A stretch of DNA of 64,000 nucleotides from an uncultured Planctomycetota bacterium (GCA_963845755.1 CAWJTV010000011.1:640001-704000), one strand, 5' to 3'; counted from the first letter of the stretch, positions 366-16,744 are shown. Numbers and translations are program-made. The notes: generated from the letters alone by a model not told the origin.

Positions 366-2826
366 TCACACCTTGAACCCCGAGATCACATTCTTGAGCG
401 CCGCGGCCTGCCGCACCAGTTCCTCGGCGCTGGCGGAGAGCTCCTCGGAGCTGGAGGCATTGGTCTCGGTGATGCTGGAGACGTTCTGGATCGCCTTGTT
501 GACCTCGGTGGAGGCCTCGGTCTGCTCCTTGGTGGCCTGGGCGATCTTGGTGATGCTAGCAGCGGTCTCCTCGACGCCCTGAACGATCTTTGCGAGCGAC
601 TCGCCGGCCTTCTGGGAGAGCTGTGCGCCGTCGGCGACGCGCCGAGTCGAACTCCTTGATGAGTGCGGTGATCTCCTTGGCCGCGGCGCTCGAGGCGCTC
701 GGCCAGCTTGCGGACCTCGTCGGCGACGACGGCGAAGCCCAGGCCGTGCTCGCCGGCCCGAGCGGCCTCGATCGCCGCGTTCAAGGCCAGGAGGTTGGTC
801 TGGCTGGCGATCTCGCTGATGACCTGGATGATGTCGCTGACCTGCTCGCTCGATTTCTTGATCAGGACCATGGCCTCGATCGCCTGATCGACCGACTCGC
901 CCCCCTGCTTGGCGAGTTTCGAGGTGGTCGTGGCCTGCGTGCTGGCGACCGAGACGTTCTGGTTGATCTCGACGATCGAGTTGGAGAGTTGCTGGATCGA
1001 CGCGGACATCTCCTCGACGGTGGCCGCCTGGTTCTGCGCCGAGTCGCTCAGATAGTTGGCGCTCTCGGCGACGACGCGCGAGCCCTCGGCGAACTGGCTG
1101 GCCGATTCGATGACCTGGCTGATGATATGCTTGAGGTCGGCGATCATCTGGGAGAGCGCGGCGCCAGACGGCCCATATCGTCGTCCCCCTTGACCTCGAC
1201 GGCGATGGTCAGGTTCCCCTCGGAGGCGGCCTTGGCGACCTTCATGAGCTGGTTGACCTTGATCTCCAGGTCCTTCTTGGCCTGGTCGAGCCGCGTCTGC
1301 TGGTCAACCCGCTCCAGGGCCGTGGAGACCAGCCGGCCGACGTTCCGCAGGGCGTCGATCCGTCCCTCCGACGGCGTGATCGACTCGTCGGTGAGGAAGT
1401 CCATGGTGCCGATGACCTGACCGCCGACGAGGATGGGGAAACCGATGCCCGACTTCAGTCCGGTGCGGCGGGCCGCCGTGGCGCGCAAGAAGTTCTTCGC
1501 ATCGCTCAGGTCGGGGACGAATACCAGGTCGCGCGACTGCCAGGCCTTGCCGTTGATCCCCTCCCCCTCGCGGAACTGCGTCTCGGCCGTCACCCGGCGG
1601 AACTCCTCGCTCACCGAGCCCGCGTCCTGGGCGAACCGCAGCACCTGCTCCTCGGGGTGGAGTTTCCAGAACGTCCCGTAGGTCCAGCCGAACGCCTCGC
1701 GCACGCTGGAGAGCGCCGCGGTGATCACGTCGGATAGGGATCGCGCGCGACCGACCGCCACCAAGAGCTGATTGACCGCCCGGATGTCGGCCGCGGTCTC
1801 CGCCTCGCGCTTCGCCAGCTCGACCTTCTCGGTCACCACCTCCCAGGTGATCATCGGCCCGATGAACTTGCCGTTCTGGTCGGACATCGCGCTGACGCTC
1901 AGCTCGAACAGCTCGGGGCCGACGTTGATCGTCGCGGTGCGGGGCAGGTTGCGGGGGTCAGCCAGCAGCCGGCGCTGATACTCGGGCGCCTTGTGGAACA
2001 CGTCGATCGAGTGGCCGATCATCTCGTTCACCCGGATCGGCAGATGCGCCTCCAGCTTCTTGAGCGTCTGCTCGGCGCGCGGATTCATGTATTGGATCTT
2101 CAGGTCGAGGTCGGCGTACATCAGGTTGATCGGCGCGTTGTCGACCATCTGCTTGATCCGCGCGAGGTCGCCCATCCGCGCCAGGGCGGAGAACTTGTTC
2201 GAGGCCGTGCGGCCGATGATGCGCAGGGCTTCGAGCCGCATGGGGGAGACCTCCACCTCGTGCGTCGAGAAGAAGTCGAGCGTGCCGGCGACCTGGCCGT
2301 CGCGCATCACGGGCAGGGCGACGGCCGCCCGGACCCCGGCGCGGCGCGCCAGGGGGGCGCGGCAGCAGTCGTGCAGGTCGCCGACATCGGCGACGTGGAA
2401 CAGGTCGCGCGACCGCCAGGCTCGTCCGTTGAGGCCCTCACCCTCCTTGAACCGCGCCGTGCGGGTCAGCCGCTGGAACTCGTCGTCCACCCGGCCGGAT
2501 TCCAGCGAGAACACCAGCGCATTCTCCACCGGGTCGACCGTCCAGTAAGACGCATAGGTCCAGCCGAATTCCTTGCGGATCGTGTCGAGCGTGGCGCGGA
2601 CGACGTCTTCGACCGTCTCGGCGCGGATGATCGCGCCCAGCGAGTCGATCATCGCCTGGGTGTTGGCATTGGCCTCCGCCAGCAGGGACTGGGCCTCCTC
2701 GGCGATATCGAGCGACGCGGGCGTGGCCCGCGCGACCTGGTCGTTCACGATGCTCATGACCGGTTTCCTTCTGGCTCTCGCCTTGCTCTGGGCGGGTGAC
2801 GGACGTGGTTCTTGGTCATTCGTCAT
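366..2826 (-). CDS. Cytoplasmic methyl-accepting chemotaxis protein, GAF-PAS-GAF-HAMP-MA (indels near 1150 and 640-700)
   Basis: ORFs 1144..2826 and 386..1147 plus a C-terminus ...[13 protein letters not shown] (stop at 366). MCP hairpin [35 protein letters not shown]; two GAF repeats (F(K/R)EGEG.NG.AW); [18 protein letters not shown]; no transmembrane segment. Confidence 0.92.
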
Positions 2827-2900
2827 GGGTCATTCATCATGGGTCAGTGAACGGACGAGGCGGGACGACCTTCCCGTTCTTGCCACTCGCGACTTGCCAC

Positions 2901-3416
2901 TCACGACTCCTGCCACTGGCCGCTGACCACGGGGCTGTGCTCGTCGAAGAGCTTCTCGATGTCGAGGATGATCAGCAGGCGATCGTCCAGACGGGCGAGG
3001 CCGGAGATGTACTGATGGGCGACCGCCAGAACGGACAGCGGCGGCGGCTGGATCTGGTCGCGGTTGATCCGCATGACCTGGGTGACCGCGTCAACGATGC
3101 AGCCGACCGTCTTATCATGGATATTCACCACGACGGTACGCGTCTCGTCGTCGACCTCGCGGGGCGTCAGGCCGAATCGCTTTCGCAAGTTGATGATCGG
3201 GATGACCGAGCCGCGCAGGTTGATCAGCCCCTCGATGAAGTCGGGCACCTGGGGAATCCGCGTGATCGGCTTCATCAAGATGATTTCCTGGATCTTGGTG
3301 ATGGCGATCGCGTAATCCTCGTTTTCAAGCCGGAAGCCCACGAGCTGGATGATCGGGTTGTCGCCCCGGCGGACGACACCCTCCGCAGACGGGACGTTTC
3401 GAGTTCCAGCGAACAT
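2901..3416 (-). CDS. cheW: Chemotaxis coupling protein CheW
   Basis: QLVGFRLENEDYAIAITKIQEII...ITRIPQVPDFIEGLINLRGSVIPIINLRKRFG is a typical CheW sequence. Confidence 0.95.
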   Translation of the reverse strand: MFAGTRNVPSAEGVVRRGDNPIIQLVGFRLENEDYAIAITKIQEIILMKPITRIPQVPDFIEGLINLRGSVIPIINLRKRFGLTPREVDDETRTVVVNIHDKTVGCIVDAVTQVMRINRDQIQPPPLSVLAVAHQYISGLARLDDRLLIILDIEKLFDEHSPVVSGQWQES

Positions 3417-4332: not shown

Positions 4333-4782
4333 ATGGGATTCATCCCGAAGGGCGCTCGCTGGTACCTGGCCGGTCTCATCCTCGAACACACGATTGAGGG
4401 CGACCCCCGGAACGTCGTCCACGTCAACACGCATCTGATCGAGGCGGATTCTCCCGAGGAGGCGTACCAGAAGGCCAACGCCCAGGGCCGGGCCGGGGAA
4501 ATCGAGTACGCCAACACCGACGGCAGGATGGTCCGCGTCGCCTTCCGCGGCCTGCGGGATCTGGATGTGATCCACGACGACCTGGAGGACGGGGCGGAGC
4601 TGTTCTACGAGGAACGGGTCGGCATCCCCGAGGACGCCTTGGCGGGGTGGGTCACGCCCAAGGAGGAGCTGGCGGTCTTCGCGCCGAGACAGGCCAGGTC
4701 GGGCGGTCCGAATTACCTGCCCCAGGAGATCGCCGAGATGCTGGAGGCGCAGGGGATCTCGCGTCCGGTTGACGAGGGCTGA
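4333..4782 (+). CDS. DUF4288-family protein
   Basis: WYLAGLILEH...VHVNTHLIEADSPEEAYQKA...Y.N.DG..V...FRGLRDL...LEDGAELFYEE resembles DUF4288; GGAG upstream of the ATG. Confidence 0.7.
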   Translation: MGFIPKGARWYLAGLILEHTIEGDPRNVVHVNTHLIEADSPEEAYQKANAQGRAGEIEYANTDGRMVRVAFRGLRDLDVIHDDLEDGAELFYEERVGIPEDALAGWVTPKEELAVFAPRQARSGGPNYLPQEIAEMLEAQGISRPVDEG

Positions 4783-4855: not shown

Positions 4856-7800
4856 TCAGCGATAAGTCCTGGCCGGGCGGAAACCGTAGTTGATCATGCG
4901 CATCGACGGCGAGTCCCCGCCAAGGACCGCCGAGCGGTCGTTCGACGGAGGATAGCTGAACGCCCCGCCCCGAAGCATACGAGGGGTGTCGTTATCATAT
5001 ATATCTGATGATATACCAATATCAATTCGCCTGCTTTCTCCGGAAATCCTGGAACGATCCTGACACCACTCCCAGACGTTGCCATGAAGATCGAACAGGC
5101 CGAGATCGTTGGGTTTGAGCCTGCCCACAGGCTGAGTTCTGTCATTGGGCGAGTTCGAGACATACCACCCGTATTTTCCCAGTAACCCCCAGGGCTCGCC
5201 GAAGGAATACCCCGTAGCCGCTCCGGCACGGCATGAGAATTCCCATTCCGCCTCGGTCGGCAGGCGATAGCCCGTTCGGTTCTGAATATCCGAGATCAGC
5301 TTCATGCCCTCGCCGTAGTCTCCCTTCTCATTCGGACCATAGCACCATTGGTCCTCGGGGAATCCCTCCTGCTGGCTCAACCAATTGCAGTAGGCGGCCG
5401 CCGCAAACCAATTGACCGAGTTCATCGGACAGGTTGGCTCAGGACTATATCGCTCTTCGTTCTTGACCTGGAGCCGGGGGTTCTCCTTCAGGCACCGTTG
5501 ATACTGCTCCACGGTGACTTCCTTGTTGGCGATGGCGAAGCTATGACCGATTCGTTCTCGATGTTGGTCCCCTCTCTCCCCCATCTCGGACTCAACCGGA
5601 CCTCGAACGATGACCATCGTCTGACCCTGGCTGTTGACGTACCATTCACGGTGGTTCTCCTGCGAACGTGCTGCACCGTGGTCCCCATCGAGCGTGGGGA
5701 GAGGCCGTTTTGCCAGGTCGTTATCGATCGCCTGGAGTTGAGGCTCACTCCGCCATTGACGGAGCAGCCAGTCCGCCGCCCCGTGAATGCCAGGATCCGG
5801 ATCATTGCGGTAGAGGTCCAGGAGTGTCTTCGCCCAGCCATCCCGCTCGTCGGTCGAAAACCGACCTTCCCCATACTCGCCAAGGCTCAGAATCAACGCC
5901 CTGCGAATGGAAACATCGCCCTCCTGGACCAGTTTGGAAATCAGGAAAACGGGTTCAACTCCCACGGGTCCAAGCCGATGGACCACGTAACTTCGCAGGC
6001 TGGGATCGGGACTGTGTCTCAGCAAGGTCCATGACTTCTCCATTCGTCCCATCCGGATCAAGGCAACTGTTGCGTTCGCTTGCCGCTGGTAGAACTTCTC
6101 CCACGCCTGGTTCTCCAGGTCGGTGGGTATTCCACCTTTTCGGGGAGTCCGCTTCTTCGCGAGTTCGACCTCGAGACGTGGAGCGGTCTGATCCGAACGC
6201 CTTTCGACACTGGGATAGAGTGCGGCGAACGGCTTCTCCGAAGCGTCCATGAGCAGTTGCGCCAACTCATCGGGCCGATCGCGCACGTATTCGGCAAGCG
6301 CACTGGCCGCCAGGGTTCGCTCGGATTCCCCGCGCTTCTCGTCGTGGAAGATGGCGCTCAGAGGCTCGCTGAGCTGGTTGGCAACAGGGCGAAGCGCGTC
6401 GATCCAGCGGGCGACCCCGTAGGCATTCTCGGCGACGAGCCGATTCGCCACGTCGATACGGACCTGCTCCCATCGAGGATTCCTGGGATCGTAGAGTGCC
6501 AGCGCGCCGGCCGCCGGGAGGGCTTTCCCTCGATCTTCCGGTCCCGGCTCCTCCAGCACCCGCCAGCATTCGGCGACGAGGGTGTCCTTGTGCCCGGCCA
6601 GCGCCTGGCGAAGGACCAAGATACTCTGGGCGTCGGCATGGAACAGCCGGTCCATCAGGTAGGGCAATTCCGCGATGCCGTCCCGATCGAGCAGGGCCAG
6701 GGCGGCATGCAAGTGCTTCTCGGATGTCCTGGCCTCCCTGGCTTCGGCATCAGCCTGTCTCAAGAGCGGATCGACCCATTGCCGGTAGGGTTCGAGCTCG
6801 ACGATGATGCCCGGTACGTCCAACAGCGGGGAACCCAGGAGTTTGTCCCGCAACCTCTGGGCTTTCAGCCGGCCATTCGCTTCGTAGCCTCCCCAGGCCA
6901 GGAGGATCAGCATCGTCGCCAGGGTCAACCCTCGAACCCCATACACTCGCCCCGCCCGTCTCATCATCTCGCGTTGCGGATCGGTCCAGTCCTTCTTCCG
7001 GGTCATCAGCCGGATGTTTGCCCACTCCAGGGAGGATGGCAGGTGGCGGTTTTCGGGCCTGGCGTTCCAGAGGGAGGAGCGTTCCGCCAGCCGCAGCTCC
7101 GCACGTCCGCGCCGGGTCTCCCGCTGCTTGCGGGTCAGCCAATCCCGCAGCGAGTGGACCAGGTAGTCGTGGGTGAGCTGGTAGAAGGATTCCGGAAAGG
7201 ATGAAGGATGAAGGCGGAAGGATGAATCAGACCGGTCGGCCTCCGTCGGTGGATTCTTCCCATTCATCCTTCCGCCTTCATCCTTCATCCTTCCGAAGCC
7301 TTCATCCTTTTCCGAGGGGTCTGTCGGCGTGATCAGCCGTAACTCCGGGTCGAGGATGCGGATCAGGTCATCGAAGTCGCCGGGGCGGTTGGCATAGCCG
7401 GAGGCTTCGCACAATTCCTGACGGGACCTCATCTGCCCCTTGATGTCGGTGCCGCTCTCGGGGAGCAGGGCTTTCAAGACGGCCTGGGCGGCCGTCTGGT
7501 GGAAGCGGTGCTCGGCAGGGGCGGTCGCGGCGCTGAAGGTCTCTTCGAGGAACGTCAGGCCGACGCCTTCCATGCCGCCCACCTCCCGGAGCGTGGCCGG
7601 GGTCCAGGGTTTCCCCTTCATCATCTCGGCGAAGAGCGCCAGCCGCACCGAGATGACCTTGCCGTCCTGGGCGAGTCCCGAGATCGCTTGATCCAGAAAC
7701 GTCTCGTGATCCTTGCTGAGATCGCGTACGCTCTCGGGCAATGCCCCGTAGGCCCGCCCGAACGCCATCAGGACCTTCCGGGCATGGCGGGGGTCGAAGA

Positions 7801-9416
7801 GGTCCACCAGGGCGCTGTTGTCGCCTTCGAGCAGGCGGATGTCCAGGTCGCGCAGGAACCGGCTGGCGGCGAGCCAGAAATCATCTCGGACCAGCACCAC
7901 GGCCTGGACGTGCTCGCCATCGCAGTGCCGCAGCGCGGCGACGAGCTCGGCATTCTCCTCACCGCGCCGGGCATGGAGCCACTGCTCGAACTGGTCCAGG
8001 ACCAGCAGCACTTTCCCCTCGGGCGGCAAGAGGCGGCCCCGTCGCAGGTTGGCCAATGAATCGACCAGCCCCGACGATCGGGGCAGCTCCGGACAGACCT
8101 TGCGCACGCCTTTGAGAAGCCGGGCCTCAGTCTCCTCCGGCGTCGCCTCGAGGTAAACCGGCAGGATATGCTTTCCCAGCCGGGGCAAGAGGCCCGCCTT
8201 GACCAGCGACGACTTGCCGCAACCGCTGGGTCCGTAGATCAGCCCCACGCGAAACGTCTGGTCGGGATCGATCGCCTCGATCTTGCGCTTCCAGAACCGG
8301 AGGCTCTCGGGCAGTCCGTCGCGGTCGCGCGGGCCGGGGAGCAGTTCCAGGAAGAAGTCGGCATCGTGCTCGTCGAAGGATCGCAACCCCTTCGGCACGA
8401 TCTTGATCGCTCGTTGATCGGAGTCGGATTGTCGAGAGACGGGCGGCAGTGGAGCGGCTTCCAGGGCTGAGCCGGGCGGCGTGCTGATGGGGACCGCGGG
8501 AGGGGCTGGAGGGGCCGTGGCTGCCTCGGCCTGGAGGAACGCGCGCAGGTCTTCCGCCATGTCCCTGGCGGTGGTGTACCGATCCGAAACCCGCTTCATC
8601 ATGGCCTTGAGGCAGATCCGTTCCAGCTCCCTGGGGATCGTGTCATCGACCTGGCGCGGTGGGCGAGCCTCAGCCCGGGTCACTTGCTCGACGATCTCTC
8701 GAAGCGCGTCCGCCCGGAATGGCTGGCGGCCGGTCAGTAACTCGTAGAAGACCACGCCCAGGCTGAAGACGTCCGAGCGCCCATCGACGAGGTGCCCCTC
8801 GCCGCGGGCCTGTTCGGGGCTCATGTACGCGGGCGTTCCCGCCAGCCCGCTCCCCTTGCCGAAGTCCTCGTCCTTGAGCGCCAGTCCGAAGTCGGCGACC
8901 GAGGGCTGGCCCGAGGCGTCGACGAGGATGTTGGCCGGCTTGATGTCGCGGTGGACCACCCCTCGGGTGTGGGCATAATGCAAGGCGTCGGCGAGGGTGG
9001 CGACCAGCTCCGCCGACTCCCGGAAGGACGGTCGAGCCTGCCGCGATCCGGACCGCCAGGTTGCCGCCTTCCACAAACTTCGATACGACGAAGCAGAATC
9101 CGTCTTCCGTGCGGCCGACATCGAAGACCGGCACGATATGAGGATGGTCGAGCTTGGCCAGCATCCGGGCTTCCGCGAGAAACGCCTCGACATCCTGGGG
9201 ACCTTGGATGTGTTGCCGATTCGGCACCTTGATCGCCACCAACCGGTCGAGGTCGTCGTCGCGGGCCAGATAGACCCGTCCGAACCCGCCCTGACCGAGG
9301 TACCGGTGGATCCGGTAGCGTCCGGTCCTTGTGGGATCGCCATCCGGGGCGCCGCTCGAGCCCGCGGCGTGCGGTTCGACGTCCACGGTTTCCGACAGGT
9401 CCTTCGTCTCATCCAT
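4856..9416 (-). CDS. Ser/Thr protein kinase + STAND-type P-loop NTPase + helical repeats + C-terminal FGE-sulfatase (C-type-lectin fold) domain, copy 1 (indel near 9040)
   Basis: The N-terminus of 8670..9416 (LGQGGFGRVYLA, VAIK) joins 4856..9574: HRDIKPAN, DFGLA, GTPAYMSPEQ; Walker A GPSGCGKSS; Walker B LLVLDQFEQ; FGE motifs YRLPTEAEWE, PNDLGLFDLHGNVWEWCQD, RGG...GFRPART. Confidence 0.9.
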
Positions 9417-9523
9417 CGTTCGGTCCCTGACAGCGATCGATCGCTTTCATGGATGTCAAGCAGAGCCATTGTCGCATCCCCGGCCGGGATGGAACAATGG
9501 GCCACGCGCTTGCCGGCAAGAAC

Positions 9524-9567
9524 GTAGGTCAGGCTTTCCAGCCTGACGTCCGGTCGTGTCAGGCTGG
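9524..9567. repeat. GTAG-type REP hairpin plus a truncated second arm at the duplication junction
   Basis: GTAG-GTCAGGCT-TTCC-AGCCTGAC at 9524-9547, then GTCAGGCTGG at 9558-9567 running directly into the DUF4288 fragment. Confidence 0.6.
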
Positions 9568-9818
9568 TCCGCATCGCTTTCCGCGGCCTGCGGGACCTGG
9601 ATGTGATCCACGATGACCTGGAGGACGGGGCGGAGTTGTTCTACGAGGAAAGGGTGGGTATCCCCGATGACGACCTGGAACGCCGGGTCAAGCCGAAGGA
9701 GGAGCTGGCTGTCGTCGCCCCGAGACGGGTCAGGGCGGACGGGCCGGATTACATGCCCCAGGAAATCGCCGAGATGCCGGAGGCGGAGGGGATCTCGCGT
9801 CCGGTTGACGAGGGCTAA
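9560..9818 (+). pseudogene. 3' fragment of the DUF4288 gene (duplicate of ~4525-4782)
   Basis: Close nucleotide match to 4525-4782, encoding ..VRIAFRGLRDLDVIHDDLEDGAELFYEERVGIP...ISRPVDEG*; the 5' half is absent. Confidence 0.85.
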
Positions 9819-9891
9819 CGCCGGGGTCCCCGATCATCCCATTGTCTGAGGCCGGCCTGAGGGGACGAAGGTCACAAGAGGGTAAAGCCGA

Positions 9892-12800
9892 TCAGTGGTA
9901 AGTCCTGGCGAGGCGAAAACCGCCGTAAGAGCCGCGGACCGACGGCTCGGTCCTGCCACGGTATGCCGACCGGAGGCCCGCCGGCTGAACGACGAACGTC
10001 CCGCCCCGAAGGAGACGAGGGTCCTTGTCAATAATAATTAATGACGGTTTTACATTTATTTCTCTATCTTCTTCTCCAGGCTCCCTGTACCGGTCCTGAC
10101 ACCACTCCCAAAGGTTACCATGAAGATCAAACAGGCCGAGATCGTTGGGTTTGAGCCTGCCCACAGGCTGTGTTCTGTCGTGCGAGTTCGCGTTATACCA
10201 CCCGTATTTTTCCAGTAGCCCCCAGGGCTCGCCGAAGGAATACCCCGTGGCCGCTCCTGCACGGCACGAGTACTCCCATTCCGCCTCGGTCGGCAGGCGA
10301 TAGCCTGTTCGGTCCTGGGTATCCGAGATCAGCTTCATGCCCTCGGCGTAATCTCCCTTCTCATTCGGGCCATAGCACCATTGGTCCTCGGGGAATCCCT
10401 CCTGTTTGCTCAACCAATTGCAGTAGGCGGCGGCAGCATACCAAGTTGCCGCGTTCATCGGGCAGGTTGGCTCAGGACTCAGAAGCTGATTGTTCTTGAC
10501 CTGGATACGGGGGTTCTCTTTCAGAAACCGCTGAAACTGCTCCACGGTGACTTCCTTGCTGGCGATGGCGAAGCGATGACCGATTCGTTCTCGATGCTGA
10601 GTCGCTCCGTCCCCCATATCGAACTGAACCGGACCTCGAACGATGACCATCGTCTGACCTTGGCTGTTGATGTACCATCCACGAGTGTTATCCTGCGAAG
10701 ACGCTGCACCCTGGTCCTCCCCGAGCGTGGGGAGAGGCAGTCTTGCCAGGTCTTTGTCGATCCCTTCGACTTGATCATCGTTCCGCCATTGACGGAGCAG
10801 CCAGTCTGTAGCTCCGTGGATGCCAGGATCCGGATCATTGCGGTAGAGGTCCAGGAATTTCTTCGCCCAGACATCCCGCTCGGTGGTCGAGAGCCGACCT
10901 TCCCCATACGCGCCAAGGCCAAGGATCAACGCCCTGCGAATGGAAACCTCGCCCTCTTGGTGCAGCTTGGCAATCAATAGAGCGGGTTCAACTCCCAGAG
11001 GTCCGAGACGATTGACCAGATAACTTCGCAGGCTGGGATCGGGACTGTGCTTCAGCAGTGTCCACGACTCCTCCATTCGTCCCATACGGATCAAGGCAAC
11101 CGCTGCGGTTGCCTGTCGCTGGTAGAACGTCTCCCATGCCTTGTTATCCACGTCAGTGGGTTCTGCGCCTTTTTGGGAAAGCGGCTTCTTCGCGAGTTCG
11201 ACCTCGAGAAGTGGAGCGGTCTGATCCGACCGTCTTTCGACACTGGGATAGAGTGCGGCGAACGGCTTCTCCGAAGCGTCTATGAGCAGCTCCGCCAATT
11301 CATCGGGCTGATCGCTCGCATATTCGGCAAGCGCACTCGCCGCCAGAGTTCGCTCGGTTTCGGATCGCTCCGTGTCACGGAAGATCGCAGCCAGCGGATC
11401 TCTCAGTTGGTGGGCCATGGGGCGAAGGGCATCGACCCAGCGAGCCAGCACGTAGGCATTCTCGGCAACGAGCCGATTCGCTACGTCGAGACGGACCTTT
11501 TCCCAGAGAGGATTCCTGGGTTCGTAGAGCGCCAATGCGCTGGCCGCCGGGAGTGCTTTCCCCTGATCTTTCGGTTCCGGCTTCTCCAGCACTCGCCAGC
11601 ATTCGGCGACGAGTGTGTCCTGATGACCGGCCAGGGACTGGCGAAGGACCGAGATATCCTGGGCGTCGGCACGGAGCAACCGGGCTTTCAAGTAGGGCAA
11701 TGGCCTCTCGTCCACGGGGAGCAGAGCCAGGGCGGCATGCAACTGCTTCTGGGAGTTCCCGGCCTCTCTGGCTTCGGCATAAGCCTGTTTCAGCAGCGGA
11801 TCGACCCATCCCCGGTAAGGTTCGAGCTCGACAATGATGCTCGGTACGTCCGACAGAGGGGAAGCCAGGAGTTTGTCCCGTAACATCTGGGCTTTCAGGC
11901 GTCCCCTAACCTCGTATCCTCCCCAGACCAGGAGGATCAGCACCGTAGCCAGGGTAAGACCTCGAATCCCATACACTCGCCCCGCCCGTCTCATCATCTT
12001 GCGTTGCGGATCGGTCCAGTCCTTCTTCCGGGTCATCAGCCGGATGGTCGCCCACTCCAGGGAGGATGGCAGGTGGCGGTTTTCGGGCTTGGCGTTCCAG
12101 GAGGAAGAGCGTTCCGCCAGCCGCAGCTCCGCACGTCCGCGCCGGGTCTCCCGCTGCTTGCGGGTTAGCCAATCTCGCAGGGAGTGGACCAGGTAGTCGT
12201 GGGTGAGCTGATAGAAGGATGAAGGACGAAGGATAAAGGATGAATCGGAACCAGGAACGGCCGATTGCTGTTCCGCTGGTTCATCCTTCATCCTTCCGCC
12301 TTCATCCTTTCCTGATGGGTCTGTCGGCGTGATCAGCCGTAACTCCGGGTCGAGGATGTGGATCAGGTCATCGAAGTCGCCGGGGCGGTTGGCATAGCCG
12401 GATGCTTCGAACAGTTCCCGACGGGACCTCATCTGTCCCTTGATGTCGGTGCCGCTCTCGGGCAGCAGGGCTTTCAAGACGGCCTGGGCCGCCTTCTGGT
12501 GGATGCGATGCTCGGGAGGAGCGGTCGAGGCGCTGAAGGTCTCTTCGAGGAACGTCAGGCCGACGCCTTCCGTGCCGCCCACCTCCCTGAGCGTGGCGGG
12601 GGTCCACGGCTTCCCTTTCATCATCTCGGCGAAGAGTGCCAGGCGGACGGAGATGACCTTGCCATCCTGGGCCAATCCCGCAATCGCTTGATCCAGAAAC
12701 GTCTCGTGATCCTTGTGGAGATCGCCCGCGCGTTCGGGCGATGCACCATAGGCCCGCCCGAATGCCAGCAGCACTTTCCGGGCATGACGGAGATCAAAGA

Positions 12801-14418
12801 GGTCCACGAGAGCGCTGTTCTCGCCTTCGACCAGCCTGACTTCCAGGTCGCGCATGAACCGGCTGGCGGCCAACCAGAAATCATCCCGCACCATCGCAAT
12901 CGCTTGAACGTGCTCGCCATCGCAATGACGGAGAGCGGCGACCAGCTCGGTGTTCTCCTCACCGCGCCTGGCATGGAGCCACTGCTCGAACTGGTCCAGG
13001 ACCAGGAGCAACTTCCGCCCGGACTGCAAGAGGCGACCCCTTCGCAAGTTGGCCAGCGAATCGACCAGCCCCGCGGATCGGGACAGTTCCGGACAGACCT
13101 TGCGCACGCCCTTGAGCAGCCGGGCTTCGGTCTCCTCCGGGGTCGCCTCGAGGTAAACCGGCAGGACGTGCCCGGCCAGCCGGGGCAAGAGCCCCGCCTT
13201 GACCAGCGACGACTTGCCGCAGCCACTGGGCCCGTAGATCAGCCCCACGCGAAACGTCTGGTCGGGATCGATCTGCTTCGATCTTTCGCTTCCAGAACCG
13301 GAGGCTCTCGGGCAGTCCGTCCCGGTCGCGCGGGCCGGGGAGCAGCTCCAGGAAGAAGTCGGCATCGTGCTCGTCGAAGGATCGCAGGCCCTTCGGCACG
13401 ATCTTGATCGGCTCGCTGATCGGAGTCGGATTGTCGGGAGGTGGGCGGGAGTGGAGCGGCTTCCAGGGTTGATCCGGGCGGCGTGTTGATGGGAGCCGCG
13501 GGGGCGTCAGGCGGGACCGTGGCTGCCGCGGCCTGGAGGAACACGCGAAGGTCTTCCGCCATGTCCCTGGCGGTGGTGTACCGATCCGACACCCGCTTCA
13601 TCATGGCCTTGAGACAGATCCGTTCCAGCTCCCTGGGGATCGTGTCATCGACCTGGCGCGGTGGGCGAGCCTCAGCCCGGGTTACTTGGTCGATGATCTC
13701 TCGGTAGCGAATCACCCCGGAATGGCCGGCGACCGGTCAGTAGCTCGTAGAGGACCACGCCCAGGCTGAAGATGTCCGAACGCCCATCGACGAGGTGCCC
13801 CTCGCCGCGGGCCTGCTCGGGGCTCATGTAGGCGGGCGTTCCCGCCAGGCCGCCCCCCTTGCCGAAGTCCTCGTCCTTGAGTGCCAGTCCGAAGTCGGCG
13901 ATCGAGGGTTGACTCGAGGCGTCGATGAGGATGTTAGCGGGCTTGATGTCGCGGTGGACCAGCCCCCGGGTGTGGGCATAATGCAAGGCGTCGGCGATGG
14001 TGGCGACCAGCTCCGCCGACTCCCGGAAGGACGGTCGAGCCTGTCGGATCCGGACCGCCAGGTCGCTGCCTTCGACGAACTTGGACACGACGAAGCAGAG
14101 TCCGTCGTCTGTGCGGCCGACGTCGAAGACCGGCACGATCTGGGGATGGTCGAGCTTGGCCAGGGTCCGGGCTTCAACCAGGAATGCCTCGACATCCTCG
14201 GGGCGACTGATGCGTTCCGGCCTCGGCACCTTGATCGCCACCGGCCGGTCGAGGTCGTCGTCGCGGGCCAGATAGACCCGTCCGAACCCGCCCTGACCCA
14301 GGCGCCCGAGGATGCGGTAACGCCCGATCTTCGTGGGATCGCCATCCGGGGAGCCACTCGAACCCGCGGCGGATGGTTCCAGGTCTGCCGTTTCCGATAG
14401 GTCCTTCGTCTCATTCAT
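9892..14418 (-). CDS. Ser/Thr protein kinase + STAND-type NTPase + FGE-sulfatase/CLec protein, copy 2 (indels near 13710, 13410, 13275)
   Basis: ORFs 13672..14418, 13239..13715, 12959..13399 and 9892..13365 join into a protein colinear with copy 1, with the same kinase, GPSGCGKSS and FGE motifs. Confidence 0.9.
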
Positions 14419-15034: not shown

Positions 15035-16744
15035 CTATCCAGGCGTCGGCCCCAGGCACACCAGGGTGATGTCGTCGGCCTGCGAGTGTTCGGCGGAGAA
15101 CTCACGGATATCCTGGAGGATCGCCCGGCCGACGGCGACCGGCCCGCCAGACGACTGGGCCACTCGTTTGATAAGGCGGTGGTTGCTTTGGGAGTCGTAG
15201 AGCTCATCCGCGCGGCTACGCGCGTCGGTCACACCGTCGGAGTAGATGACGACAACGTCGCCCTGGTTCAACTGGACCTCGGTCTGCTGGTAAACCGAAT
15301 CCTCCATGATACCCAGCGGTAACCCGGAGACCTCCTGGCCGACTTCCTCCGCTCGGCCGTCGGCGCGACGGATAATCACGGGCGTGTGGCCTGCTGATGT
15401 CAAGGTCAGCTTGTGTGTGGAAGTATCGAGCACGCACAGGCCGAGAGTAATGAACTTATCCTCGATCCCGGCGGCGCAGAGCAGGCTGTTCAGACGAGTG
15501 GCGGTCGGCGCGGGGGCATCCTCGGTCAGGATGCAGTACCGCGTGTCACCGGAGAACTTGGCCATCATCAATGCCGCCGCCACACCCTTGCCTGAGACGT
15601 CGCCCAGTGCGACGGCCATGCGGTCGGCAGGGAGAGGCACAAAGTCATAATAGTCACCCCCGACCTCGTAGGTCGGCTGGTAATGAGCGAAGAACTCGTA
15701 GCCTTGGACGGTCGGCACGTCTTGCGGTAAGAACCGCTTCTGCACCTGCTCAGCGAGTTTCAAATCGCGGTTGAGTCGTTCGCGCACCAGGAGCGACTCG
15801 AGCATCGAGGCGTTCTGGATGGAAATCGCCGCCTGGCTCGCGACGGCCGCCAGGACGTCGAGGTCGTCCTCGTTGAACTGGCGGCGGTCGCTCGTGTCGA
15901 GTTGGAGAATCCCCAGCGCCTTGTTGTCCGGCGTCAACAGCGGGACGCACATGACCGAGCGGATTTTCAAGTCGGAGATCGAGGCGCTGCTGGGCAGGTT
16001 CTTGTCGTCGCCAGCGTCCTCGCTCAGCACCGCCTTCTTCTGGCCGAGCACGAAGTCAACGATTGACCGGCTGATGCTCGTCGGGACCTCGTCCTCGGGT
16101 ACGGTTCGGCTGAAAGACGTACGCTTCTGGGGGCGGTACTTGAAAGCCTTACGCACCAGTCGCTTGCTCGAGGGATCCTGCAGCATCAGGAAGAGCCGCT
16201 CGGCACCGGGAAAGATTTCCATCAGCGAGTCGAGGATCTTGGGGGCGACTGTGTCGATCCGCAACTCGTTGGAGAGACTTCGGGTGATCTCGAGGATCGC
16301 TTTGAGCTTCACTTCGGGACGAACCGCACTGGCCGTCGCGCTCGAGCGCGAGGCTTCGAGTGTGCGGAAGTCCCGACTTTCCCTGCCGTCGCTCTCGGTG
16401 ACCACCATGAGGTCGGCGGCGGGTTCGGGCTCCTTTGGCTTGGGCGGCCCAACGGGGTAGTAGACGAACTCGACGCCGCAGATGCTGATCCGGTCGTTCT
16501 CCTTCAGAAGATGCTCGACCCCCCCCTTGAGCGCGGTGTCGTTGACAATCGTCTTGTTCAGCGAGTCGAGATCGACCAAGAAGAAGGCCGGCCCGACCTG
16601 GCGGATCTCGGCATGCCGCCGGCTCACTCCGTTGGTCGCCAGAACAAGGTCACACTCCGGCAAGCGACCGATCACCGTCACGCCGCTTTTGAGATCAACC
16701 AGCGCACCGGCAAGGTCTCCGGTCACCCGTTTCAAAACCGCCAT
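15035..16744 (-). CDS. FHA-GAF-SpoIIE (PP2C-type) phosphatase
   Basis: FHA: IGRLPECDLVL...VSRRHAEI...DLDSLNKT. GAF: RSVMCVPLL...LGILQLD. PP2C: VGGDYYDF, GDVSGKGVAAALMMA, YSDGVTDA, DDIT. Confidence 0.93.
   Translation of the reverse strand: MAVLKRVTGDLAGALVDLKSGVTVIGRLPECDLVLATNGVSRRHAEIRQVGPAFFLVDLDSLNKTIVNDTALKGGVEHLLKENDRISICGVEFVYYPVGPPKPKEPEPAADLMVVTESDGRESRDFRTLEASRSSATASAVRPEVKLKAILEITRSLSNELRIDTVAPKILDSLMEIFPGAERLFLMLQDPSSKRLVRKAFKYRPQKRTSFSRTVPEDEVPTSISRSIVDFVLGQKKAVLSEDAGDDKNLPSSASISDLKIRSVMCVPLLTPDNKALGILQLDTSDRRQFNEDDLDVLAAVASQAAISIQNASMLESLLVRERLNRDLKLAEQVQKRFLPQDVPTVQGYEFFAHYQPTYEVGGDYYDFVPLPADRMAVALGDVSGKGVAAALMMAKFSGDTRYCILTEDAPAPTATRLNSLLCAAGIEDKFITLGLCVLDTSTHKLTLTSAGHTPVIIRRADGRAEEVGQEVSGLPLGIMEDSVYQQTEVQLNQGDVVVIYSDGVTDARSRADELYDSQSNHRLIKRVAQSSGGPVAVGRAILQDIREFSAEHSQADDITLVCLGPTPG

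What the first reader, a model, noticed from the sequence alone, without database searches (positions are those of the whole stretch)
4856..10020. Two tandem kinase-STAND-CLec receptors whose C-termini carry a DGR variable-region signature
Seen: the paralogs are close along most of their length, but the last ~40 codons (4856-4985 vs 9892-10020) diverge in a patterned way. Scaffold codons are identical (CGG GGC GGG..TTC, CCG TCG, GGT TT. CGC, GCC AGG ACT TA.). Most variable codons differ at positions 1-2 and keep the third base: AGC/GTC, TAT/GTT, AAC/GGC, GAC/CTC, GTC/TAC, GAC/ACC, AAC/TAC, TAC/GGC. A few do not fit (ATG/GGC, ATC/TCT). The proteins read RGGAFSYPPSNDRSAVLGGDSPSMRMINYGFR vs RGGTFVVQPAGLRSAYRGRTEPSVRGSYGGFR. 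Both stops are followed by TCGGCTTTAC and a GC-rich near-palindrome. Known: DGRs mutate template adenines (AAC/AAT to NNC/NNT) in the C-terminus of FGE-sulfatase/CLec domains. Inference: these are remote or formerly active DGR targets, i.e. NLR-like intracellular sensors with a hypermutable ligand-binding tip.
Basis: partly seen in the sequence, partly recalled or inferred. Interest (0 to 1): 0.85.

Follow-up and report, generated by a model that had tools for sequence, protein, structure and literature searches.

The report
Orphaned DGR targets in receptor kinases
Two neighbouring sensor-kinase genes end in a short stretch that looks rewritten by a diversity-generating retroelement, but the retroelement itself is found only in the sister species, so here the tips appear to be frozen relics of a known system.

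Summary
Two tandem minus-strand genes (9416-4856 and 14418-9892) encode Pkinase-nSTAND1-(candidate TM)-HEAT-like-FGE-sulfatase/CLec proteins. They are 77-96% identical in every 120-nt window except the last ~240 nt, where identity drops to 0.60-0.72.

The last 122 nt of each gene (4864-4985, 9900-10021) align base for base with the template repeat (TR) of a complete Avd-RT-TR cassette in the only other genome of the genus (G001).
- VR1 and VR2 differ at 19 of 25 TR-adenine positions, against 19 of 97 other positions.
- Codons opposite TR AAC keep their final C in 8 of 8 (VR2) and 6 of 8 (VR1) cases.
- dN/dS is 1.68 in the VR against 0.33 elsewhere, while dS stays at background.

This genome's assembly (88% complete) holds no DGR reverse transcriptase, no Avd and no TR. 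At the syntenic site, about 140 bp replace the 2.07-kb cassette. Non-adenine mismatches (about 11%) and the missing downstream hairpin argue against current retrohoming.

Best reading: former DGR targets, now orphaned. Kinase/STAND-CLec DGR targets are already published, so this is a new member of a known kind. The frameshifts in both genes are probably assembly errors, because rpoB and rpoC are split too.

The parts
4856..9416 (-). Gene 1: Ser/Thr kinase - nSTAND1 NTPase - hydrophobic stretch - HEAT-like region - FGE-sulfatase/CLec domain. It reads in two frames because of one extra base near 9043.
   Evidence: ORFs; Pfam (Pkinase 8.5e-29, nSTAND1 2.2e-19, FGE-sulfatase 5.2e-37; kinase N-lobe in ORF 8670-9416). 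Indel. N-lobe sequence.
4864..4985 (-). VR1: 122 nt that align without gaps to the TR of the sister species (G001). Stop codon at 4856-4858.
   Evidence: 12 of 25 TR-adenine positions differ, against 11 of 97 others (Fisher p 1.4e-4). Codon lists.
4986..5055 (-). AT-rich (27-47% GC), indel-prone hypervariable loop directly 5' of VR1. The TR does not cover it.
   Evidence: alignment and GC; identity 0.60-0.69; dN 0.62, dS 1.0; variable in length and sequence across 60 homologs.
9892..14418 (-). Gene 2: paralog of gene 1 with the same architecture. It has three private 1-nt insertions near 13705, 13411 and 13274.
   Evidence: indels. Kinase piece 13672-14418 has Pkinase 1.4e-44 with GQGGFG, VAIK, HRD, DFG and SPE (motif names recalled).
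9900..10021 (-). VR2: 122 nt that align without gaps to the G001 TR. Stop codon at 9892-9894.
   Evidence: 18 of 25 TR-adenine positions differ, against 11 of 97 others (p 5e-9); 8 of 8 codons opposite TR AAC end in C (expected 3.7, P 0.0017).
10022..10090 (-). AT-rich hypervariable loop 5' of VR2.
6884..6934 (-). Candidate transmembrane helix of gene 1 (residues about 881-897, GLTLATMLILLAWGGY). The matching stretch in gene 2 is at 11914-11964.
   Evidence: the single hydropathy peak (KD 1.48 in gene 1, 1.74 in gene 2), with basic residues on both sides. No TM predictor was run, so this is inference.
7058..8392 (-). nSTAND1 NTPase domain of gene 1 (Walker A GPSGCGKSS).
   Evidence: residues 395-839; sequence.
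4333..4782 (+). Convergent DUF4288 gene. Its 3' end belongs to the duplicated unit, and a remnant copy lies at 9740-9817.
   Evidence: DUF4288, 1.4e-19; flank identity.
15035..16744 (-). FHA-GAF-PP2C (SpoIIE) phosphatase gene directly upstream of gene 2. It is a possible partner of the kinases.
   Evidence: SpoIIE 9.2e-46, FHA 3.2e-17, GAF_2 2.8e-14. The partnership is inferred from adjacency only.

Best explanation
Genes 1 and 2 belong to a seven-member family in this genome of Ser/Thr-kinase - nSTAND1 - FGE-sulfatase/CLec receptor proteins. Their last 122 nt are variable regions (VRs) of a diversity-generating retroelement (DGR).

Proposed history (inferred):
1. In the ancestor of this genus an Avd-RT-TR cassette sat next to one family member, the ortholog at C11:829.9-834.3 kb.
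2. The cassette copied its TR into the 3' ends of family members, randomising TR adenines. These are mainly positions 1 and 2 of AAC codons. This gave each paralog a different ligand-binding surface on the CLec fold.
3. This happened at about the time of the gene1/gene2 duplication and the species split.
4. Homing into these two genes then stopped, and their VRs have since drifted at the ordinary rate.
5. This species no longer carries the cassette; it is absent at the syntenic site. VR1 and VR2 are therefore fixed, germline-encoded specificities.

Proposed function (inferred from domains): ligand binding at the CLec tip controls STAND oligomerisation and kinase output, and the adjacent FHA-PP2C phosphatase may reverse that output.

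What is shown: the architecture, the cognate TR in the sister species, the adenine bias, and the absence of the machinery from this assembly. What is inferred: the historical order, the ligand sensing and the signalling.
For: (1) Cognate TR in the sister species.
- Brt of phage BPP-1 finds RTs at E 2e-37 to 7e-49 in 7 of 60 relatives, including the only same-genus genome G001.
- G001:C13 carries bAvd (PF22296, 1.2e-21), an RVT_1 RT with LGNQTSQ and YVDD, and a 122-nt TR in the RT's 3' end.
- In G001, two VRs differ from that TR at 7 and 12 adenines and at 0 and 1 other core positions.
- The TR scaffold equals that of VR1 and VR2.

(2) Adenine bias.
- VR1 against TR: 12/25 adenine positions differ, against 11/97 others.
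- VR2 against TR: 18/25 against 11/97.
- VR1 against VR2: 19/25 against 19/97 (p 2e-7). At codon positions 1-2 only: 18/24 against 11/56 (p 4e-6).
- VR1 against its G001 ortholog (88% identical overall): 13/25 against 17/97.

(3) The third base C is kept opposite TR AAC codons.
- VR2: 8/8 (expected 3.7, P 0.0017).
- VR1: 6/8 (P 0.026).
- Ortholog: 8/8 (P 0.0075).

(4) dN/dS is 1.68 in the VR against 0.33 in the rest. VR dS (0.28) matches the background (0.31).

(5) The best solved relative by sequence is the DGR variable protein TvpA (2Y3C, E 1.5e-18), ahead of the FGE enzymes at about 1e-7.

(6) The machinery is missing from this assembly.
- The 42 RVT_1 matches are group-II or retron-like.
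- Best Brt hit is E 2e-10 at 25% identity.
- The G001 Avd and RT find nothing DGR-like, and the TR matches only VRs.
- There is no bAvd.
- A VR-profile nhmmer search finds 7 sites at E <= 1.6e-10, all at the ends of FGE ORFs.

(7) Synteny. G001 L033:4471-9008 matches C11:829892-834414 at 88%, and homology resumes at L033:11086 = C11:834558. About 143 bp therefore stand in for the 2.07-kb cassette.
Against: - VR-TR mismatches are not confined to adenines: 11 of 23 (VR1) and 11 of 29 (VR2) lie at other bases. An active target would show almost none.
- The TR used for comparison is from another species. This genome's own TR has never been seen.
- TR adenines sit in exactly the codons that vary across the whole family. 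Selection on binding-site residues would therefore also enrich differences there.
- Starting from ancestral AAC codons, ordinary point mutation under selection would also tend to keep the final C.
- In G001, where the cassette is present, the ortholog of gene 1 has 10 non-adenine mismatches to the TR. It is not visibly targeted there now.
- VR1 and VR2 lack the downstream hairpin shared by the clean G001 targets and by C11:834 kb.
- The assembly is only 87.9% complete by marker genes. A cassette elsewhere cannot be excluded.
- Loss in G000 rather than gain in G001 was not tested with an outgroup.
Confidence: 0.72

Rival explanations
1. Ordinary paralog divergence. The CLec binding-site residues, ancestrally Asn-rich as in many FGE-sulfatase domains, evolved under diversifying selection by point mutation. 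No retroelement ever acted on these two genes. The G001 TR merely descends from the same scaffold.
For: - The variable columns are the same across 60 metagenomic homologs. This is what a tolerant binding surface would show.
- Non-adenine mismatches run at 11-20%.
- The adjacent AT-rich loop is just as variable without any TR.
- No DGR machinery is present in this assembly.
Against: - Within codons that carry TR adenines, adenine positions differ in 18/24 cases but third positions in only 4/15.
- C-ending codons exceed the codon-usage expectation given the amino acids.
- VR dS equals background while dN is 4.6-fold higher.
- Orthologs that are 88% identical share no more adenine-site states than independent draws would (my count from the codon lists: 2 shared of 8 co-mutated sites).
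- A working cassette with this exact scaffold sits beside a family member in the sister species.
Confidence: 0.17
2. VR1 and VR2 are still diversified in trans by a DGR cassette that lies in the unassembled part of this genome.
For: - Marker-gene completeness is 87.9% in 49 contigs.
- Remote targets acted on in trans are described in other bacteria (PMC10907252 and PMC7517822; passages read).
- IMH-like ends are kept with one change each.
Against: - The syntenic site is contiguous and lacks the cassette.
- The locus of G001's second DGR is also missing, while its flanks are present on C38.
- VR1 and VR2 differ from each other at 19/97 non-adenine positions, and VR dS equals background. Recent homing from one TR would have erased such differences.
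- There is no family hairpin downstream.
Confidence: 0.08
3. Assembly artefact. The divergent ends would come from mis-assembly or sequencing error in a repeat family.
For: The assembly has many 1-nt indels: rpoB is split in two frames and rpoC in three pieces. Each of gene 1, gene 2 and the G001 ortholog has private indels.
Against: The differences are substitutions in a codon-patterned, frame-preserving arrangement. They are flanked on both sides by 83-96% identical sequence. The same pattern appears in an independent genome, G001. Short metagenome contigs match other parts of gene 1 exactly (table 8).
Confidence: 0.03

Closest known systems
DGR-diversified STAND NTPase-CLec 'antigen sensors' of multicellular bacteria (Thiohalocapsa PB-PSB1 DGR 3 and 6, clade 5D; PMC10907252, passages read)
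   Same: - Central nSTAND1 or NACHT NTPase with a C-terminal FGE-type CLec that carries the VR.
- Duplicated targets, remote or incomplete loci, and Pkinase among the listed target domains.
- Variable positions at codon positions 1-2.
- Planctomycetes are mentioned among the hosts.
   Different: - No RT, Avd or TR is found in this genome.
- The VRs carry about 11% non-adenine mismatches to the nearest TR, which is in another species.
- No read-level diversification could be shown.
- The N-terminal effector is a kinase, not an EAD, TIR or protease adaptor.
Cyanobacterial kinase-CLec DGR variable proteins and their 'remote VPs' (PMC7517822, passages read)
   Same: - N-terminal Ser/Thr kinase grafted to a C-terminal CLec, with the VR at the 3' terminus.
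- Paralogs dispersed in the genome with graded VR/TR homology.
- Proposed role in tuning signalling.
   Different: - A different phylum; source names of homologs point to Planctomycetes.
- An added nSTAND1 NTPase and a candidate TM segment.
- The cassette is absent from the genome.
Treponema denticola TvpA (PDB 2Y3C)
   Same: Best solved relative by sequence (E 1.5e-18; query residues 67-290 against chain 59-291). It is an FGE-type CLec fold with the VR at the C-terminus.
   Different: TvpA is a small single-domain protein of 294 residues in the solved chain, described from recall as a surface lipoprotein. Here the domain ends a protein of about 1,500 aa with kinase and STAND domains.
Bordetella phage BPP-1 Mtd / Avd (bbp7) / TR / Brt cassette (AY029185)
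   Same: The G001 cassette has the same parts. Its RT is 36-48% identical to Brt over the matched parts, it has a bAvd, and its TR differs from the VRs at adenines.
   Different: The G001 order is target-Avd-RT-TR, with the TR inside the 3' end of the RT reading frame. BPP-1 has mtd-avd-TR-brt. The window itself has only the target part.
Formylglycine-generating enzymes (SUMF1/FGE, PvdO, EgtB)
   Same: Pfam FGE-sulfatase domain.
   Different: Far weaker similarity (about 1e-7) than to TvpA. There is no cysteine in the last 45 residues of either protein, which is where the FGE catalytic cysteine pair lies (position recalled). The domain is therefore a binding domain, not the enzyme.

Membership tests
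DGR target gene (variable protein) | VR at the 3' end of an ORF encoding a CLec/FGE-type fold | tested here: met
   FGE-sulfatase Pfam hit reaches residue 1569 of 1572 in gene 1 and 1154 of 1157 in gene 2. TvpA is the best PDB relative.
DGR target gene (variable protein) | A cognate TR in the same genome | tested here: not met
   blastn, nhmmer and the G001 TR find only 3' ends of FGE ORFs in G000. The assembly is 87.9% complete. A cognate TR exists in the same-genus genome G001.
DGR target gene (variable protein) | VR-TR mismatches (almost) only at TR adenines | tested here: inconclusive
   Against the G001 TR, VR1 has 12 of 23 mismatches at A and VR2 has 18 of 29, while A makes up 25 of 122 TR bases. 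This is strongly enriched (p 1e-4 and 5e-9) but not exclusive. The genome's own TR is unknown.
DGR target gene (variable protein) | DGR-type reverse transcriptase in the genome | tested here: not met
   The 42 RVT_1 matches are all group-II or retron-like. Brt's best hit is E 2e-10, against 1e-38 to 1e-49 for true DGR RTs in relatives. The G001 RT finds <=28% identity hits only.
DGR target gene (variable protein) | Accessory protein Avd | tested here: not met
   PF22296 gives 0 matches in G000. tblastn with the G001 Avd gives none.
DGR target gene (variable protein) | IMH at the VR 3' end and a downstream hairpin/cruciform | tested here: not met
   An IMH-like end is kept with one change each. 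The hairpin CCCGGCG(A/T)AGCCGGG, shared by the clean G001 targets and by C11:834 kb, is absent. The VR1 and VR2 flanks fold no better than shuffles.
DGR target gene (variable protein) | Within-population variation at VR adenine-derived positions | not testable with these tools
   Only low-depth contigs of three soil runs from one study were available, and none covers the VRs.
STAND NTPase (nSTAND1, PF20703) | Pfam match above the gathering score, and a P-loop | tested here: met
   70.8 and 72.5 bits against a cut-off of 27.1. GPSGCGKSS is present in both proteins.
Hanks-type Ser/Thr protein kinase | Pkinase match and catalytic motifs (G-loop, VAIK Lys, HRD, DFG, APE-like) | tested here: met
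   Pkinase at 1.4e-44 for the gene 2 piece. GQGGFG, VAIK, HRDIKPAN, DFG and SPE are present. Motif definitions are recalled.
Formylglycine-generating enzyme (catalytic) | Catalytic cysteine pair in the C-terminal segment | tested here: not met
   No Cys in the last 45 residues of either protein. The position of the FGE cysteines is recalled, not taken from a call.

The most novel reading that the evidence does not exclude
The ~70-nt AT-rich, indel-prone segment that abuts the 5' boundary of every VR in this family is a second diversification module. It would be produced by the retrohoming process itself, through imprecise or template-independent resolution of the 5' cDNA junction. The family's binding tip would then be varied by two mechanisms, and the loop's scars would remain after the cassette was lost. 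The evidence does not exclude this. The loop is unalignable among copies that are about 88% identical elsewhere. It has raised dS (1.0) as well as dN, starts exactly where TR homology ends, and varies in length across 60 homologs. A plainer reading is a fast-evolving surface loop that drifts toward AT under mutation bias.
Probability: 0.1. Interest if true: 0.6.

Novelty: new member of a known kind. Interest (0 to 1): 0.35.

Why it matters
This case shows what is left when a bacterium loses its targeted-hypermutation machine. Seven receptor-kinase paralogs remain, each holding a different, now hard-wired binding tip. The sister species still has the Avd-RT-TR cassette and freshly rewritten targets. 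The species pair is therefore a natural comparison between a mutable and a fixed sensor repertoire.

It also gives a practical rule for annotation. Orphan VRs can be recognised through a relative's TR even when the genome itself fails every DGR-finder criterion.

The kind of system, DGR-diversified kinase/STAND-CLec sensors, is already described, so the gain is incremental.

Tried and rejected
- Public reads. No RNA holder was listed. Three DNA runs of one soil study hold small shares of the sampled words (0.18, 0.06, 0.05) as short low-depth contigs. One contig ends at 4868, and none covers 4864-4985 or 9900-10021. Nothing can be said on VR polymorphism or on the frameshifts from these.\n- A-biased repeat pairs within 6 kb of the six RTs outside the two large multi-copy RT families, searched against the whole genome. 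Five short marginal pairs turned up, none TR/VR-like.\n- A [IVL]GxxxSQ motif hit in the C22 RT. It proved spurious: that RT is group-II-like (QGSPI...SPLLANIYM) and is interrupted by an inserted recombinase-like gene.\n- NCBIfam gave no DGR-specific RT model among its hits. I therefore used Brt of phage BPP-1 as a yardstick.\n- One search used a mis-registered slice of the G001 ortholog, off by two bases. Its ortholog rows are void and were redone.\n- One search failed on a script error and was repeated.\n- Earlier findings of this scan: none for this genome.\n- Considered and not run:\n - structure prediction of the CLec domain, because the tool returns no coordinates to measure loop-VR proximity and the sequence hit to TvpA is already clear;\n - complex prediction;\n - a TM predictor, because none is on hand;\n - an outgroup test of loss against gain of the cassette.

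Full report
WHAT IS THERE

The window is G000:C11:640001-704000. Two tandem genes lie on the minus strand. ORF 4856..9574 gives 1572 aa as read and ORF 9892..13365 gives 1157 aa.

Pfam finds Pkinase, nSTAND1, a weak HEAT_2 hit and FGE-sulfatase in gene 1, and nSTAND1 plus FGE-sulfatase in gene 2. The missing kinase parts lie in other frames just upstream, in ORFs 8670..9416 and 13672..14418. The true genes therefore run 9416->4856 and 14418->9892.

The proteins are 80% identical (907/1138). The kinase motifs GQGGFG, VAIK, HRD, DFG and SPE are present, as is the P-loop GPSGCGKSS (motif names recalled). One hydrophobic stretch (GLTLATMLILLAWGGY) is the only hydropathy peak and sits between the STAND and the C-terminal half. 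This is a candidate membrane span, and no TM predictor was available.

THE FRAMESHIFTS ARE PROBABLY ASSEMBLY ERRORS

I aligned gene 1, gene 2 and the G001 ortholog.
- Gene 1 has one private extra base near 9043.
- Gene 2 has three, near 13705, 13411 and 13274.
- The ortholog has three private missing bases.

In this assembly rpoB is split into two frames and rpoC into pieces in two frames. I therefore treat these indels as probable assembly errors, not as pseudogenisation. This is not proven.

CHECKING THE OBSERVATION

In 120-nt windows, gene1-gene2 identity is 0.77-0.96 throughout. The exceptions are the two windows starting at 5049 and 4932 (about 5049-4813), at 0.60 and 0.72. The 3' flank returns to 0.85. 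Both comparisons with the G001 ortholog dip at the same place.

| Segment | Codons | dN | dS | dN/dS |
|---|---|---|---|---|
| Rest of gene | 1064 | 0.10 | 0.31 | 0.33 |
| Last 42 codons (VR) | 42 | 0.47 | 0.28 | 1.68 |

The shared TCGGCTTTAC after the stop codons is part of a duplicated flank that also holds the tail of a convergent DUF4288 gene. The supposed palindrome does not fold better than shuffled sequence (z +0.63 and +2.43).

LOOKING FOR THE DGR IN THIS GENOME

I searched for a template repeat.
- blastn with both ends, and an nhmmer profile of them, find seven sites in the 14.27-Mb assembly at E <= 1.6e-10. The next hit is at 7.7e-4.
- All seven are 3' ends of FGE-domain ORFs.
- Five of the seven have the kinase, and six have most of the nSTAND1 domain upstream.
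- No free-standing template repeat exists.

I searched for the reverse transcriptase.
- RVT_1 has 42 matches.
- They fall into two multi-copy families of 18 and 7 plus a few singletons.
- NCBIfam scores representatives of the large family and the remaining RTs that were scanned as group-II-intron or retron-like, and none has the DGR-type SQ motif (motif recalled).
- With Brt of phage BPP-1 as a yardstick, the best hit in this genome is E 2.2e-10 at 25% identity. Genuine DGR RTs in relatives score 2e-37 to 7e-49.

There is no bAvd. No A-biased repeat pairs lie near the RTs outside the two large families.

THE SISTER SPECIES HAS THE MISSING MACHINE

Among 60 relatives, 7 have RTs at E <= 3e-37 to Brt. 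One of them is G001, the only other genome of the genus.

G001:C13 (locus L033) carries, in order:
- a target gene ending at 8918;
- a bAvd gene at 9158-9514 (PF22296, 1.2e-21);
- an RT (RVT_1; LGNQTSQFFANVYL, YVDD);
- a 122-nt TR at 10573-10694, inside the 3' end of the RT frame.

Two G001 VRs differ from this TR at 7 and 12 adenines, and at 0 and 1 other positions outside the last 17 nt. The element therefore looks active there.

The TR scaffold is the scaffold of VR1 and VR2. Both align to the TR over all 122 nt without gaps.

ADENINE BIAS

| Comparison | TR-adenine positions differing | Other positions differing | p |
|---|---|---|---|
| VR1 vs G001 TR | 12/25 | 11/97 | 1.4e-4 |
| VR2 vs G001 TR | 18/25 | 11/97 | 5e-9 |
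| VR1 vs VR2 | 19/25 | 19/97 | 2e-7 |
| VR1 vs VR2, codon positions 1-2 only | 18/24 | 11/56 | 4e-6 |
| VR1 vs G001 ortholog | 13/25 | 17/97 | 8e-4 |

The only close G001 counterpart is the ortholog of gene 1 (C13:272730-277916, 88% identical).

Within TR codons that carry adenines, VR1 and VR2 differ at 18/24 adenine sites but at only 4/15 third positions. Opposite the eight TR AAC codons:
- VR2 keeps the C in 8/8 (expected 3.7 from these genes' own codon usage given the amino acids, P 0.0017);
- VR1 keeps it in 6/8 (P 0.026);
- the ortholog keeps it in 8/8 (P 0.0075).

This is the footprint expected of adenine-directed mutagenesis. Selection alone explains it less well.

WHY 'RELIC' RATHER THAN 'ACTIVE'

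(i) At the syntenic locus, G000 C11:829892-834414 matches L033:4471-9008 at 88%, up to and including the post-VR hairpin. Homology resumes at C11:834558 = L033:11086. About 143 bp thus replace the 2.07-kb Avd-RT-TR segment.

(ii) The locus of G001's second DGR is also missing, while its flanks are present on C38.

(iii) Non-adenine mismatches to the TR are about 11%, similar to the 12% divergence of orthologous genes. VR1 and VR2 also differ from each other at 20% of non-adenine sites, and their dS equals the gene-wide value. Recent homing from one TR would have reset these positions.

(iv) The hairpin CCCGGCG(A/T)AGCCGGG follows both clean G001 targets and the C11:834-kb ortholog. It is absent after VR1 and VR2.

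(v) Even in G001, the ortholog of gene 1 has 10 non-adenine mismatches to the resident TR.

The simplest history is this. Homing into this branch of the family took place around the time of the duplication and the species split; all three pairwise identities are about 0.87-0.89. Homing then stopped, and G000 later lost, or at least does not show, the cassette. Loss in G000 rather than gain in G001 was not tested with an outgroup.

COUNTER-ARGUMENTS

- The TR adenines sit in the very columns that vary across 60 metagenomic homologs. Selection on a tolerant binding surface would therefore give some of the same enrichment.
- From ancestral AAC codons, point mutation would also tend to keep the C.
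- The TR compared is from another species.
- The assembly is 87.9% complete.

I give the selection-only reading 0.17 and an unassembled active cassette 0.08.

FUNCTION (INFERRED)

- The best solved relative of the C-terminal domain is the DGR variable protein TvpA (2Y3C, E 1.5e-18). FGE enzymes score about 1e-7.
- There is no cysteine where the FGE catalytic pair lies (position recalled). The domain is therefore a binding module.
- By analogy with published STAND-CLec and kinase-CLec DGR targets (PMC10907252, PMC7517822, PMC7159879; passages read), ligand binding at the variable tip would control STAND assembly and kinase signalling.
- An FHA-GAF-PP2C phosphatase gene lies directly upstream (15035-16744) and is a plausible partner.
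- If the hydrophobic stretch spans the membrane, the CLec domain faces outward and the 'intracellular NLR' picture does not hold.

HOW COMMON THE ARCHITECTURE IS

Of the 120 best database relatives of the C-terminal domain, 50 carry Pkinase + nSTAND1 + FGE-sulfatase at about 1,400-1,900 aa. This count includes the window's own protein. Where sources give names, they point to Planctomycetes.

NOVELTY

The system type is published. A full-text search for DGR + planctomycet + variable region + template repeat listed 32 papers (listing only), and I read none of them for orphaned VRs. The new element is the pairing of a cassette-bearing species with a cassette-less sister species that keeps differently 'frozen' VRs. 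I file it as a new member of a known kind, with interest 0.35.

UNEXPLAINED

The ~70 nt directly 5' of each VR are AT-rich (27-47% GC in a region of about 60-70%). They cannot be aligned among copies that are about 88% identical elsewhere, they vary in length across the family, and both dN and dS are raised. The TR does not cover this segment.

Noticed in passing
window 4986-5055 and 10022-10090: An AT-rich (27-47% GC), indel-prone segment lies directly 5' of each VR. It cannot be aligned among gene 1, gene 2 and the G001 ortholog, although they are about 88% identical elsewhere. Both dS (1.0) and dN (0.62) are raised. It begins exactly where TR homology ends and varies in length across 60 homologs.
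   Followed up: partly
G000:C34:79366-83015 (rpoB) and C34:567489-571586 (rpoC); window ~9043, ~13705, ~13411, ~13274: Essential genes rpoB and rpoC are split by frameshifts in this assembly. Single-base indels therefore seem common. Several of those in genes 1 and 2 lie next to GATC. Marker-gene completeness (87.9%) may be depressed for the same reason.
   Followed up: partly
G000:C11:834196-834326: The ortholog of the G001 DGR-proximal target keeps a nearly unmutated VR (4 adenine and 5 other mismatches to the G001 TR) and the downstream hairpin. It has a 1-nt insertion inside the VR that shifts the frame.
   Followed up: partly
L033:12085-12394 (G001:C13): A second copy of the RT 3' end plus TR, 85% identical over 311 nt, lies 1.7 kb downstream of the first. 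Its TR-like part differs from the TR at 13/25 adenines and 9/96 other positions. It looks like a mutagenised or decaying TR copy.
   Followed up: no
L032 (G001:C12:162000-181999) and G000:C38: G001's second DGR has an RGGSW-type TR at L032:11239-11369 and a VR at 9466-9597, with 9 of 10 mismatches at A. It has no counterpart in G000. Its flanks are present on C38 but about 60 kb apart.
   Followed up: partly
G000 genome-wide (e.g. C41:22498-24600, C47:18050-20152, C34:521811-523739): Two multi-copy RT gene families are present, with 18 and 7 copies or fragments; the scanned representative of the 18-copy family is group-II-intron-like. Many lie at contig ends. One further group-II-like RT (C22:186-3600) is interrupted by a recombinase-like insertion.
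   Followed up: partly
window 15035-16744 (-): An FHA-GAF-PP2C (SpoIIE) phosphatase gene lies directly upstream of gene 2. It is a possible phospho-signalling partner of the receptor kinases.
   Followed up: no
window 386-3416 (-): Chemotaxis-type genes lie just downstream of the pair: an MCP signalling domain, a GAF-PAS protein and CheW.
   Followed up: no
P0027 (metagenomic homolog): One close homolog reads out of frame through its VR and continues into unrelated sequence. This is another frameshifted VR in this family.
   Followed up: no
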